From a virus (taxonomy: Duplodnaviria; Heunggongvirae; Uroviricota; Caudoviricetes): 4,521 nucleotides of DNA. Of the stretch, positions 1-4,521 are shown piece after piece. The position numbers and the translations under genes were made by a program. The stretch is from IMG/VR virus record IMGVR_UViG_2740892433_000001; one strand, given 5' to 3'. The notes beneath the pieces are model-generated. The model saw nothing but the letters and a program-made list of their open reading frames with translations. It was not told the origin of the DNA and searched no databases. Positions within the stretch are counted from its first letter, which is position 1, and every line of letters begins with the position of its first letter.

Positions 1-250
1 CCGGATAACGCCAGCGTCGCGAGTGCCTCCTGGGCAGTCAGGCTGTCGCCGGACACCGCATCCGTCAGGCGGCTGANGGTGCCTCTCCGGCAGTCAGACT
101 GTCGCCGGATACCGCATCCGTCAGGCGGCTGATCCCAAGCTGGCCTGCAAGCGCACAAAAGAAAACCCGCGCATAGGCGGGTTCAAGCATCAGCGGCTCA
201 TTAAAAGCCATGCTGGCAATATGCGGGAGATTACGCAGCTCTGCTGTCAC
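1..250 (-). CDS. C: Head protease/scaffolding protein C (lambda gpC), N-terminal part only; gene continues beyond window start. Frame is broken in this sequence by a 56-nt N-marked tandem insertion (78-133).
   Basis: GTG start at 250..248 followed by translation VTAELRNLPHIASMAFNEPLMLEPAYARVFFCALAGQLGIS..., which I recognise as the lambda gpC N-terminus. Bases 1-60 on the minus strand read AVSGDSLTAQEALATLALSG in the frame that is continuous with the N-terminus once the 56-nt insertion is removed. Start overlaps the B stop by 20 nt, as in lambda. Confidence 0.85.
22..132. repeat. Direct tandem duplication, period 56 nt, N at junction (pos 77); inside C; frameshifting.
   Basis: 22-76 (agtgcctcctgggcagtcaggctgtcgccggacaccgcatccgtcaggcggctga) vs 78-132 (ggtgcctctccggcagtcagactgtcgccggataccgcatccgtcaggcggctga); anchors cagtca at 35 and 91, ggctga at 71 and 127. 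Confidence 0.9.
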
Positions 251-1892
251 TCTTCTCCTCCTCTGTTGATTGTCGCAGTCCGGATTCAAATGCCGCAGCC
301 GCCCAGGCGGGCGGTTTAAGACCGGCTGCACGGCGCTCCATCGTTTCACGGACCTGCTGGGCAAAAATTTCCTGATAGTCGTCACCGCGTTTTGCGCACT
401 CTTTCTCGTAGGTACTCAGTCCGGCTTCTATCAGCATCACCGCTTCCTGTACTTCTTTCAGACCATCGATGGCCATACGACCGGAGCCTATCCAGTCACA
501 GTTCCCCCAGGCACTGCGGGCTTCCTGAAAGCTGAAGCGCGCTTTTGAAGGTAACGTCACCACGCGGCGAACGATAGCCTCTTCCAGCCAGCACAGAAAC
601 ATCTGGCTCGCCTGACGGGATGCGACGAATTTTCGCCGCCCCATAAAGTACGCCCACGACTCGTTCGCACTGGCCCGTGCCGTGGAGTAGCTCATCTGGG
701 CGTAATTCCGGGAAAGCTGCTCATACGAGACACCCAGTCCGGCAGCGATATACCGCAGCAGTGACTGCTCAAACACGGAGTAGCCGTTATCCGTGTCCTG
801 AGCCGTCTGCAGGTTCAGAGAGTCACCCGGCATCAGGTGCGGCACTTTTGCGCCTCCCAGCCGGACCGGCGCGGCGGCGTAATACGCGGCAATTTCACCA
901 ATCCAGCCCGCCAGCTTGTCCCGCTGCTCATTACTGTTCGCGCCAAGAATAAAATCCATCGCTGACTNGGTCAGCTTGTCCCGCTGCTCCTGACTGTTCG
1001 CGCCCAGAATAAAATCCATCGCTGACTGCGTATCCAGCTCACTTTCAATGGTGGCGGCATACATCGCCTTCACAATGGCGCTCTGCAGCTGCGTGTTCTG
1101 CAGCGTGTCGAGCATCTTCATCTGCTCCATCACGCTGTAAAACACATTTGCACCGCGGGTCTGCCCGTCCTCCACGGGTTCAAAGACGTGAATGAACGAG
1201 GCGCGCCCGCCGGGTAACTCACGGGGTATCCATGTCCATTTCTGCGGCATCCAGCCAGGATACCCGTCCTCGCTGACGTAATATCCCAGCGCCGCACCGC
1301 TGTCATTAATCTGCACACCGGCACGGCAGTTCCGGCTGTCGCCGGTATTGTTCGGGTTGCTGATGCGCTTCGGGCTTACCATCCGGAACTGTGTCCGGAA
1401 AAGCCGCGACGGACTGGTATCCCAGGTGGCCTGAACGAACAGTTCACCGTTAAAGGCGTGCATGGCCACACCTTCCCGAATCATCATGGTAAACGTGCGT
1501 TTTCGCTCAACGTCAATGCAGCAGCAGTCATCCTCGGCAAACTCTTTCCATGCCGCTTCAACCTCGCGGGAAAAGGCACGGGCTTCTTCCTCCCCGATGC
1601 CCAGATAGCGCCAGCTTGGGCGATGACTGAGCCGGAAAAAAGACCCGACGATATGATCCTGATGCAACTGGATGGCGTTGGCGGCATAGCCGTTATTGCG
1701 TACCAGATCGTCTGCGCGGGCATTGCCACGGGTAAAGTTGGGCAGCAGGGCTGCATCCACACTTTCACTCGGTGGGTTCCACGCCCGCAACTGCCCACCA
1801 AATCCGCTGCCACCGCCGTGATAACCGGCATATTCACGCAGCGATGTCATGCCGTCCGGTCCCAGAAGGGTGGGAATGGTGGGCGTTTTCAT
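231..1892 (-). CDS. B: Portal protein B (lambda gpB); contains an in-frame 60-nt N-marked tandem duplication (20 extra codons) at about 909-1028.
   Basis: ORF track gives a 553-aa product [35 protein letters not shown]...EEEKSDSRAA, recognised as the lambda portal protein. ATG at 1892..1890 overlaps the W stop (ATGA). AGGA Shine-Dalgarno-like motif about 9 nt upstream on the minus strand. Confidence 0.95.
   Translation of the reverse strand: MKTPTIPTLLGPDGMTSLREYAGYHGGGSGFGGQLRAWNPPSESVDAALLPNFTRGNARADDLVRNNGYAANAIQLHQDHIVGSFFRLSHRPSWRYLGIGEEEARAFSREVEAAWKEFAEDDCCCIDVERKRTFTMMIREGVAMHAFNGELFVQATWDTSPSRLFRTQFRMVSPKRISNPNNTGDSRNCRAGVQINDSGAALGYYVSEDGYPGWMPQKWTWIPRELPGGRASFIHVFEPVEDGQTRGANVFYSVMEQMKMLDTLQNTQLQSAIVKAMYAATIESELDTQSAMDFILGANSQEQRDKLTXSAMDFILGANSNEQRDKLAGWIGEIAAYYAAAPVRLGGAKVPHLMPGDSLNLQTAQDTDNGYSVFEQSLLRYIAAGLGVSYEQLSRNYAQMSYSTARASANESWAYFMGRRKFVASRQASQMFLCWLEEAIVRRVVTLPSKARFSFQEARSAWGNCDWIGSGRMAIDGLKEVQEAVMLIEAGLSTYEKECAKRGDDYQEIFAQQVRETMERRAAGLKPPAWAAAAFESGLRQSTEEEKSDSRAA
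909..1028. repeat. Direct tandem duplication, period 60 nt, N at junction (pos 968); inside B; in-frame (20 codons).
   Basis: cagcttgtcccgctgctc...aataaaatccatcgctgact occurs at 912-967 and 972-1027 with 4 substitutions; encodes SAMDFILGANSQEQRDKLT and SAMDFILGANSNEQRDKLA. Confidence 0.9.
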
Positions 1893-4210: not shown

Positions 4211-4521
4211 TCAGCAACCCCGGTATCAGTTCATCCAGCGCGGCTGCTTTGTTCATGGCTTTGATGATATCCCGTTTCAGGAAATCAACATGTCGGTTTT
4301 CCAGTTCCGGAAAACGCCGCTGCACCGACAGGGGGATCCCGTCGAGAATACTGGCAATTTCACCTGCGATCCGCGACAGCACGAAAGTACAGAATGCGGT
4401 TTCCACCACTTCAGCGGAGTCTCTGGCATTTTTCAGCTCCTGTGCATCGGCCTGCGCACGCGTAAGTCNTGAGTCTCTGGCATTCTTCAGTTCCTGTGCG
4501 TCGGCCTGCGCACGCGTAAGT
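4185..4521 (-). CDS. nu1: Terminase small subunit Nu1 (lambda gpNu1), C-terminal part; 5' end lies beyond the window end. Contains an in-frame 54-nt N-marked duplication (4416-4521).
   Basis: Minus-strand translation ...LTRAQADAQELKNARDS[X LTRAQADAQELKNARDS][76 protein letters not shown], recognised as the Nu1 C-terminus. TAA stop at 4187..4185. Confidence 0.9.
   Translation of the reverse strand, partial: LTRAQADAQELKNARDSXLTRAQADAQELKNARDSAEVVETAFCTFVLSRIAGEIASILDGIPLSVQRRFPELENRHVDFLKRDIIKAMNKAAALDELIPGLLSEYIEQSG
4416..4521. repeat. Direct tandem duplication, period 54 nt, N at junction (pos 4469); inside nu1; in-frame (18 codons); second copy truncated by the window end.
   Basis: gagtctctggcatttttcagctcctgtgcatcggcctgcgcacgcgtaagtc (4417-4468) vs gagtctctggcattcttcagttcctgtgcgtcggcctgcgcacgcgtaagt (4471-4521); 3 substitutions, all synonymous (gat/gac, gag/gaa, aaa/aag). 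Confidence 0.9.

What the first reader, a model, noticed from the sequence alone, without database searches (positions are those of the whole stretch)
1..4521. Every N in the window sits exactly at the junction of a short tandem duplication (7 loci, 8 Ns)
The only ambiguous bases are at 77, 968, 1952, 2070, 2884, 2932, 3100 and 4469. Each lies immediately between two near-identical direct copies of a 26-63 nt stretch of coding sequence. The perfect coincidence between N positions and duplication junctions, the variable unit length, and the restriction to an otherwise canonical lambda gene block point to a technical origin: mis-joined or doubly placed read segments, a consensus-caller or polishing artefact, or deliberate editing. 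Replication slippage would not leave an ambiguous base at each junction.
Basis: seen in the sequence. Interest (0 to 1): 0.7.

Follow-up and report, generated by a model that had tools for sequence, protein, structure and literature searches.

The report
Assembly artefact: allelic contigs joined by N
The short duplications beside every N are not biology: a short-read assembler strung together overlapping pieces from two slightly different lambda-like prophage copies and put one N at each join it could not merge.

Summary
The eight Ns are the only ambiguous bases, and each sits between two near-identical direct copies. The window is the whole GenBank WGS record JSVR01000073.1, from a clinical uropathogenic E. 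coli isolate that was Illumina-sequenced and assembled with SOAPdenovo. Cutting at the Ns gives nine pieces. Each is a gapless match to lambda nu1-A-W-B-C, and neighbours overlap on the reference by 10-62 nt. The two copies always differ, at 1-6 sites. 26 of these 30 differences are natural polymorphisms with both alleles present in a six-sequence panel. At four junctions each copy exactly matches a different natural phage or prophage. The right piece starts on a variant base at 7 of 8 junctions. The left piece ends exactly 22 nt after its last variant base at 6 of 8. This is de Bruijn-graph geometry for K about 23, and no permutation out of 10^6 reached either count. None of 5,426 complete E. 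coli genomes carries either tested join, although many carry 2-8 copies of the block. Verdict: a known class of false duplication (allelic contigs placed in series across a gap). It is not a real feature and has low interest, except that it puts spurious proteins into databases.

The parts
1..4521 (-). Whole record JSVR01000073.1: lambda-like packaging/head block (C' - B - W - A - nu1', all on the minus strand), written as a scaffold of nine pieces (1-76, 78-967, 969-1951, 1953-2069, 2071-2883, 2885-2931, 2933-3099, 3101-4468, 4470-4521)
   Evidence: one search shows L003 equals the reverse complement of the window
22..132 (.). J1: left copy 22-76, N 77, right copy 78-132. 55-nt overlap, 6 differences, +56 nt (frameshift) in gene C
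   Evidence: Left copy exact in PhiR26_1, FCI1, 20Ec-P-124 and 120899; right-copy alleles VG35A2-like
909..1027 (.). J2: left copy 909-967, N 968, right copy 969-1027. 59-nt overlap, 5 differences, +60 nt in frame in portal gene B
   Evidence: Left copy exact in FCI1, 20Ec-P-124 and VG35A2; right copy exact in strain 120899. Start of the right copy exact in 214 genomes
1927..1977 (.). J3: left copy 1927-1951, N 1952, right copy 1953-1977. 25-nt overlap, 1 difference, +26 nt (frameshift) in gene W. Does not follow the 22-nt / first-base geometry
   Evidence: left exact in lambda, PhiR26_1, VG35A2; right exact in FCI1, 20Ec-P-124
2026..2114 (.). J4: left copy 2026-2069, N 2070, right copy 2071-2114. 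44-nt overlap, 4 differences, +45 nt in frame in gene W
   Evidence: left exact in PhiR26_1, FCI1; right exact in lambda, VG35A2
2874..2979 (.). J5 and J6: end of piece 5 (2874-2883), N 2884, a 47-nt lambda-allele piece (2885-2931), N 2932, then the start of the other-allele piece (2933-2979). Both alleles of one bubble are written in series. +11 nt (frameshift) and +48 nt in terminase gene A
   Evidence: The 47-mer is exact in lambda, VG35A2 and 120899. 2874-2883 is identical to 2933-2942
3038..3162 (.). J7: left copy 3038-3099, N 3100, right copy 3101-3162. 62-nt overlap, 5 differences, +63 nt in frame in gene A
   Evidence: left exact in PhiR26_1, FCI1; right exact in lambda, 120899. Start of the right copy exact in 1,315 genomes, none with the join
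4416..4521 (.). J8: left copy 4416-4468, N 4469, right copy 4470-4521 (record ends here). 53-nt overlap, 4 differences, +54 nt in gene nu1
   Evidence: right copy exact in PhiR26_1, FCI1, 20Ec-P-124 copy A
231..1892 (-). Portal (gpB) ORF, 553 aa instead of 533. Carries a spurious 20-aa repeat beginning with X (XSAMDFILGANSNEQRDKLA)
   Evidence: This exact product is on record in the public protein collection
1889..2166 (-). gpW region, 278 nt instead of 207. Internal repeat [14 protein letters not shown], then a frameshift
2163..4210 (-). Terminase large subunit (gpA), split into a 462-aa N-terminal ORF (2822-4210, 3 X, two in-frame insertions, then the frameshift at J5) and a 238-aa C-terminal ORF (2163-2879)

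Best explanation
The window is a SOAPdenovo scaffold. The sequenced E. coli isolate contained two lambda-like versions of the nu1-A-W-B-C block, about 1-3% apart, most simply two resident lambdoid prophages. Where the two versions are identical or differ sparsely, the de Bruijn graph collapsed them into one path. Where differences are dense (mostly 4-6 within a stretch with no shared 23-mer), the bubble was not merged. The contig on the left ends inside one allele's branch and the contig on the right begins inside the other allele's branch, so both cover the same 10-62 nt of genome. The scaffolder ordered them by read pairs, found no exact overlap because of the allelic mismatches, and wrote both ends with one N as a minimal gap. 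At 2884-2932 it wrote both branches of a single bubble one after the other. Shown: the piece structure, the allelic nature of the copies, the K-dependent geometry, the absence of the joins elsewhere, and the assembler used. Inferred: that the second haplotype is a second prophage rather than a second strain, that K was the default 23, and that a single N is the scaffolder's placeholder for a gap estimated at zero or less.
For: (1) Provenance. The window is the complete 4,521-bp record JSVR01000073.1 of GCA_001651715.1. [quoted passage not shown] (2) Structure. The nine pieces are each gapless and collinear with lambda, and neighbours overlap on the reference by 55, 59, 25, 44, 10, 47, 62 and 53 nt. 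(3) Copies are alleles. All eight overlaps contain mismatches (30 in 355 nt). 26 of the 30 have both alleles in a six-sequence natural panel. At J2, J3, J4 and J7 each copy is exact in a different natural sequence. (4) Graph geometry. The right piece's first base is a discordant site at 7 of 8 junctions. The last discordant site is exactly 22 nt before the left piece's end (23 before the N) at 6 of 8. Neither count was reached in 10^6 permutations. Gaps between successive variants inside the overlaps are all 21 or less, so no shared 23-mer exists inside them. (5) Applying K = 23 to natural haplotype pairs puts the dense bubbles at exactly ref 1353-1389 (J2), 2384-2405 (J4), 3292-3331 (J7) and 501-554 (J1; 501 is the record's first base). 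(6) Assembler behaviour. [quoted passage not shown] (7) Not in nature. Top complete-genome hits all span 4,159 bp in seven BLAST pieces. 0 of 5,426 complete E. coli genomes cover the junction-spanning 60-mers for J7 or J2. Four junction patterns gave 0 hits across viral, metagenome and species-representative genome collections. (8) A source for two haplotypes is plausible: the block occurs at a median of 2 and up to 8 places per complete E. coli genome. (9) The long pieces carry the 'a' haplotype only in the overlap zone and then the 'b' haplotype.
Against: J3 (25-nt overlap, 1 difference) and J5 (10-nt overlap) do not follow the 22-nt / first-base geometry. The J5/J6 and J3 bubbles have fewer than four differences and so should have been merged under the quoted rule. 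A strict reading of SOAPdenovo's vertex model predicts 23 rather than 22 nt after the last variant, unless the N stands in for the 23rd base. The last piece ends 21 nt, not 22, after its last variant. No reads or coverage were available, so copy number and the presence of two haplotypes in the sample are inferred from the sequence only. The K value and the single-N convention rest on my own knowledge of the program, not on a document I could retrieve. The paper does not give the version or parameters.
Confidence: 0.95

Rival explanations
1. Same scaffolding artefact, but the second haplotype comes from a mixed culture or cross-sample contamination (two E. coli strains, each with one lambda-like prophage) rather than from two prophages in one genome.
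For: The sequence alone shows only that two haplotypes were present among the reads. Nothing here measures copy number.
Against: Multiple copies of this block in one chromosome are the norm in complete E. coli genomes: median 2, up to 8 places. One example is the two copies in strain 20Ec-P-124. No extra assumption is therefore needed. Pure lambda contamination is excluded because the second haplotype is not lambda at J1 or J2.
Confidence: 0.1
2. The overlaps were created by the gap-filling step (SOAPdenovo -F or GapCloser) rather than by graph contigs. Each flank of a small gap was extended by local assembly along a different allele, the extensions failed to merge, and one N was left.
For: J5, where the left piece runs 10 nt into the branch and these 10 nt are identical to the start of piece 2933-3099, and J3 look more like partial extension than clean graph edges.
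Against: The geometry is strand-asymmetric: pieces start on a variant base but end 22 nt after one. That is what graph edges printed without their leading K-mer look like. Symmetric extension from both flanks would not produce it.
Confidence: 0.15
3. The tandem duplications are real (replication slippage or unequal recombination in the prophage), and the Ns are low-quality base calls at the junctions.
For: Five of the eight insertions are multiples of three, and the portal ORF stays open.
Against: The copies differ at 1-6 sites that are pre-existing natural polymorphisms, with each copy matching a different natural haplotype; a fresh duplication would be identical. Three insertions shift the frame of C, W and A, and gpW would take two hits. 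The junction geometry tracks a K-mer length. No other genome or contig carries any tested join.
Confidence: 0.01
4. Deliberate editing, or a consensus or polishing artefact that placed the same read segment twice.
For: The perfect coincidence of Ns and repeats looks designed.
Against: The window is an unmodified public record. Doubly placed segments would be identical, not allelic. The assembly was short-read only, and the paper reports no polishing step.
Confidence: 0.01

Closest known systems
False 'heterotype' duplications in genome assemblies (Ko et al. 2022, Genome Biol 23:205, PMC9516828; Vertebrate Genomes Project terminology)
   Same: Two alleles of one locus are both kept and placed next to each other on one scaffold, with an assembly gap between the copies and allele-specific k-mers in each copy. 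They arise where local divergence between haplotypes is higher than elsewhere. All of these sequence-level hallmarks are seen here.
   Different: Here the 'haplotypes' are probably two paralogous prophage copies in a haploid bacterium rather than two parental chromosomes. The duplicated units are tens of bases, not kilobases. Read-depth and read-pair criteria could not be tested.
Improper handling of heterozygous contig pairs in the original SOAPdenovo scaffolder (Luo et al. 2012, SOAPdenovo2, PMC3626529)
   Same: Same program family as used for this assembly. The authors themselves state that heterozygous contigs were improperly handled and that version 2 keeps only the deeper contig of each pair. 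The 47-nt piece at 2885-2931 followed by its allelic partner is exactly such a pair kept in series.
   Different: That paper describes the problem for diploid eukaryotes and in terms of scaffold length. It does not describe the single-N, K-spaced signature documented here.
Collapsed or mosaic assembly of multi-copy lambdoid prophage modules in short-read E. coli genomes
   Same: The block is present in most complete E. coli genomes, often in several copies. The long pieces here are mosaics that match no single natural sequence better than 98.5%.
   Different: Usually such repeats simply break contigs. Here the fragments were also scaffolded, which produced the visible duplications.

Membership tests
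False (heterotype) duplication across an assembly gap | A gap (N) lies between the two copies on the same scaffold | tested here: met
   All 8 Ns lie between copies, and all 7 repeats of 25 nt or more straddle an N
False (heterotype) duplication across an assembly gap | The copies carry haplotype-specific differences and are not identical sequence | tested here: met
   1-6 differences per overlap. 26 of 30 have both alleles in a natural panel, and each copy is exact in a different natural sequence at J2, J3, J4 and J7
False (heterotype) duplication across an assembly gap | The duplication is absent from independent high-quality assemblies of the same locus | tested here: met
   0 of 5,426 complete E. 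coli genomes cover the J7 or J2 join. Top hits span 4,159 bp. 0 hits for four junction patterns in three collections
False (heterotype) duplication across an assembly gap | Roughly half read depth on each copy and discordant or absent read pairs across the join | not testable with these tools
   No reads available
SOAPdenovo de Bruijn-graph scaffold join | The assembly was made with SOAPdenovo | tested here: met
   PMC4850163 methods: 'assembled by SOAP de novo (Li et al., 2010)', and the accession JSVR00000000 is listed
SOAPdenovo de Bruijn-graph scaffold join | Piece boundaries sit at K-dependent offsets from variant sites (start on the variant base, end about K after the last one) | tested here: met
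   7 of 8 starts and 6 of 8 ends (22 nt plus the N). Neither count was reached in 10^6 permutations. The record's own first base is also a polymorphic site. J3 and J5 are exceptions
SOAPdenovo de Bruijn-graph scaffold join | The bubbles left unmerged exceed the merge rule (fewer than 4 differences and more than 90% identity are merged) | tested here: inconclusive
   5 of 7 loci have 4-6 differences, but J3 (1, or 3 counting adjacent sites) and J5/J6 (3) fall below the threshold
SOAPdenovo de Bruijn-graph scaffold join | K = 23 was used, and a single N is written for a gap estimated at zero or less | not testable with these tools
   The paper gives no parameters. The default K = 23 and the 1-N minimum are my own recollection of the program, and I found no document stating them
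Genuine tandem duplication (slippage or unequal crossing-over) | The copies are identical at origin and the junction is a defined, contiguous sequence | tested here: not met
   Every pair differs at pre-existing polymorphic sites, and every junction is an N
Genuine tandem duplication (slippage or unequal crossing-over) | Compatible with a functional gene, or recurrent in related genomes | tested here: not met
   Insertions of 56, 26 and 11 nt shift the frame of C, W and A. Not found in any other genome tested
Lambda-like packaging/head module (nu1-A-W-B-C) | Gene order and high nucleotide identity to lambda 453-4611 | tested here: met
   97.5% to NC_001416 and 97.9% to PhiR26_1, collinear once the overlaps are removed

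The most novel reading that the evidence does not exclude
The least ordinary reading the data leave open is that the joins are real, that is, a prophage whose packaging and head genes carry seven short tandem duplications built from recombination between two co-resident prophage alleles, with the Ns being miscalled bases. A milder version is that the K-spaced single-N signature could serve as a general, read-free detector of allelic-contig joins in legacy SOAPdenovo assemblies.
Probability: 0.01. Interest if true: 0.4.

Novelty: not a real feature. Interest (0 to 1): 0.06.

Why it matters
Biologically it does not matter, because the duplications are not in the organism. It matters for data hygiene. 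The record is a mosaic of two haplotypes and matches no real phage. It yields spurious products that are already indexed in public protein collections, such as a 553-aa portal protein with a 20-aa repeat and an X, a broken gpW and a split terminase. Counted naively, it would suggest pseudogenised or duplicated head genes. The signature found here is a single N, a right piece starting on a variant base, and a left piece ending K-1 bases after one. It can be recognised without reads and could be used to flag and collapse such joins in other legacy short-read assemblies.

Tried and rejected
(1) I searched for the junctions elsewhere. The J2 pattern was scanned in viral, metagenome and genome collections, J7 in metagenomes, J4 in genomes and J6 in viral contigs. 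All gave 0 hits. A local test showed that a pattern N does match a literal N, so these are true negatives for those collections. (2) Looking up the N-free 238-aa terminase fragment by exact sequence found nothing. The 553-aa portal ORF found the source record. (3) I tried to document SOAPdenovo's default K and the single-N convention from the literature. The papers found mention '-K 23' only as a chosen parameter, or refer to Trinity's default. The original SOAPdenovo paper (PMC2813482) is not held, so the bubble rule is cited from two secondary sources. (4) Lambda laboratory contamination as the second haplotype is rejected. The 47-mer and the J4 and J7 right copies are lambda-identical, but the J1 right copy is VG35A2-like and the J2 right copy has two non-lambda bases. 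(5) No single natural genome explains the long pieces; the best is 98.4-98.5% overall and 99.2% for piece 78-967, consistent with a mosaic consensus. (6) A strict two-haplotype painting with strains 120899 and FCI1 leaves several '?' sites, so the sample's second haplotype is not represented exactly in my panel.
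Full report
OBSERVATION. The window contains exactly eight non-ACGT characters, all N, at 77, 968, 1952, 2070, 2884, 2932, 3100 and 4469. Repeat finding gives seven direct-repeat families of 25-63 nt with start-to-start spacing of 56, 60, 26, 45, 48, 63 and 54 nt. Every one straddles an N. The only other repeats are 18-21 nt at 76-78% identity. Lambda has no such tandem repeats in the homologous region. One nuance is that the N at 2884 is flanked only by a 10-nt imperfect repeat and belongs to a three-piece arrangement with the N at 2932.

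WHAT THE SEQUENCE IS. The window is the reverse complement of lambda 453-4611, covering nu1', A, W, B and C'. It is 97.5% identical to lambda and 97.9% to phage PhiR26_1. It covers only 4,159 reference bases, so 362 bases are extra. An exact-product look-up with the 553-aa portal ORF showed that the window is the entire GenBank WGS record JSVR01000073.1 (4,521 bp) of assembly GCA_001651715.1. One search confirms identity to the reverse complement. JSVR00000000 is one of eight clinical uropathogenic E. coli isolates. These were sequenced on a HiSeq 2000 with paired-end reads at about 200x and 'assembled by SOAP de novo (Li et al., 2010)' (PMC4850163).

ANATOMY. Cutting at the Ns gives nine pieces of 76, 890, 983, 117, 813, 47, 167, 1368 and 52 nt. 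Each aligns to lambda without a gap. Each neighbouring pair overlaps in reference coordinates, by 55, 59, 25, 44, 10, 47, 62 and 53 nt. The 'tandem duplications' are therefore the overlapping ends of separate contigs written one after the other with a single N between them. Overlap plus one N accounts for all the extra bases.

THE COPIES ARE ALLELES, NOT DUPLICATES. No pair of copies is identical: there are 30 differences in 355 overlapping nt. In a panel of only six natural sequences, 26 of the 30 sites have both the left-copy and the right-copy allele. The panel was lambda, PhiR26_1, the two prophage copies of strain 20Ec-P-124, FCI1 and VG35A2. With strain 120899 added, at J2, J3, J4 and J7 the left copy is an exact match to one set of natural sequences and the right copy to another. 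At the other four junctions one copy is exact and the other differs by a single private base. The 47-nt piece at 2885-2931 is the lambda/VG35A2/120899 allele of exactly the stretch that opens the next piece (2933-2979, the PhiR26_1/FCI1-type allele). Both branches of one bubble were therefore written in series. Pieces 969-1951 and 3101-4468 carry 'a'-type alleles only within the overlap zone and 'b'-type alleles afterwards. No natural genome matches the whole window better than 98.5%. The record is a mosaic consensus of two haplotypes.

DE BRUIJN-GRAPH GEOMETRY. At 7 of 8 junctions the first base after the N is itself a site where the two copies differ. At 6 of 8 the last differing site lies exactly 22 nt before the end of the left piece, that is 23 nt before the N. 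With sites placed at random within each overlap, neither count was reached in 10^6 permutations. Binomial estimates are 2e-7 and 9e-11. Within the overlaps, successive variant sites are never more than 21 nt apart, so no shared 23-mer exists inside them. A piece that starts on the variant base and ends K-1 (or K) bases after the last variant is what a branch edge of a de Bruijn graph looks like when printed without its leading K-mer. The value fits K = 23, which I recall as SOAPdenovo's default. That is my own knowledge; I could not retrieve a source for it.

I then applied K = 23 to natural haplotype pairs. The dense bubbles (4 or more differences) fall at exactly ref 1353-1389 (J2), 2384-2405 (J4), 3292-3331 (J7) and 501-554 (J1). 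Position 501 is the first base of the record, so the record itself also starts on a polymorphic base. Most sparse bubbles (29-37 per pair) lie away from any junction. [quoted passage not shown] Five of the seven loci have 4-6 differences. [quoted passage not shown]

IS IT FOUND ANYWHERE ELSE? The block occurs in 4,198 of 5,426 complete E. coli genomes, with a median of 2 and up to 8 places per genome. Two copies in one isolate is therefore the expected situation. All listed best hits span exactly 4,159 bp in seven BLAST pieces, so they lack the insertions. Junction-spanning 60-mers for J7 and J2 are covered at 80% or more in 0 of 5,426 genomes. Only the 30-nt right halves match, exactly, in 1,315 and 214 genomes. 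Four junction patterns, with N as a wildcard, gave no hit across the viral, metagenome and species-representative genome collections (control).

CONSEQUENCES FOR THE GENES. The insertions are 56 nt (C), 60 (B), 26 and 45 (W), 11, 48 and 63 (A) and 54 (nu1). Three of them shift the frame. The portal ORF reads 553 aa instead of 533, with an inserted XSAMDFILGANSNEQRDKLA. gpW repeats [14 protein letters not shown] and then leaves its frame. gpA is split into ORFs of 462 and 238 aa. The 553-aa product is on record in the public protein collection.

MECHANISM AND CONFIDENCE. The best explanation, at about 0.95, is a scaffolding artefact. Two lambda-like haplotypes were co-assembled. Dense allelic bubbles were left unmerged. 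Contigs ending in one allele and starting in the other were ordered by read pairs and could not be overlapped exactly, so they were concatenated with a one-N placeholder. The piece structure, the allelic copies, the K-spaced boundaries, the assembler and the absence of the joins elsewhere are shown directly. Three points are inferred: that the second haplotype is a second prophage (about 0.8-0.85) rather than a mixed culture (about 0.1), that K = 23, and the one-N convention. A gap-filling step may have contributed at J3 and J5, which do not follow the geometry. Genuine tandem duplication and editing are each at or below 0.01.

UNEXPLAINED DETAILS. J3 and J5 break the geometric rule. The J3 and J5/J6 bubbles have fewer than four differences and yet were not merged. 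The offset is 22 rather than the 23 expected from SOAPdenovo's vertex model, unless the N replaces the 23rd base. The last piece stops 21 nt after its last variant. None of these affects the verdict.

COMPARISON AND NOVELTY. This is a small-scale bacterial instance of the 'heterotype false duplication' class. That class is defined by allelic copies on one scaffold, separated by a gap, arising at locally divergent regions (Ko et al. 2022, PMC9516828). It also matches the heterozygous-contig problem that the SOAPdenovo authors acknowledged. It is not a real feature of the genome and interest is low. The practical value is as a flag on this record and as a read-free signature for similar joins in legacy assemblies.

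Noticed in passing
window 1 and 4521: The record's first base (lambda-locus position 501) is itself a site that differs between VG35A2 and FCI1, so 8 of the 9 pieces start on a polymorphic base. The record ends 21 nt after the last discordant site of J8, one base short of the 22-nt rule.
   Followed up: partly
window 1927-1977 (J3) and 2874-2894 (J5): These two joins do not follow the geometry of the other six. The left pieces end 8 and 4 nt after the last variant. The J3 right piece does not start on a variant base. The last 10 nt of piece 2071-2883 are identical to the first 10 nt of piece 2933-3099. This may reflect partial gap filling or a third read population.
   Followed up: partly
window 231-1892 (-): The artefactual 553-aa portal protein, with a 20-aa repeat that begins with X, is present as a called gene product in the public protein collection. 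The gene calls on this record also include a 79-aa and a 20-aa fragment of gpW and only the C-terminal 239 aa of the terminase.
   Followed up: yes
window 98, 2879/2938, 4446 (lambda-locus 542, 3192, 4637): Four of the 30 discordant cells (three distinct positions) carry an allele (A in each case) that is absent from the six-sequence natural panel. These are either private variants of this isolate's prophages or errors.
   Followed up: no
phage collection hit H11 (MW057783.1): A GenBank record named 'Campylobacter phage CJLB-4' (48,361 bp, host Campylobacter jejuni) matches this block at the same 97.5% identity and nearly the same coordinates as lambda. One 'Xanthomonas' record also matches. 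These look like lambda itself under another name (contamination or mislabelling).
   Followed up: no
L004 and L005 (NZ_AP017610.1, 905-910 kb and 642-652 kb): E. coli 20Ec-P-124 carries two copies of the block whose C, B, W and A proteins have identical accessions. Only the nu1 product differs (WP_000453587 against WP_000453576). The three nucleotide differences between copy B (L004) and FCI1, whose piece-by-piece scores equal copy A's, fall at 4607-4628, the same place as junction J8.
   Followed up: partly
window 78-4468, long pieces: Inside the long pieces the haplotype assignment also flips sporadically (isolated 'a' alleles within 'b' runs). This is consistent with per-bubble choice of one branch by the assembler, so the interior consensus is also chimeric.
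   Followed up: partly
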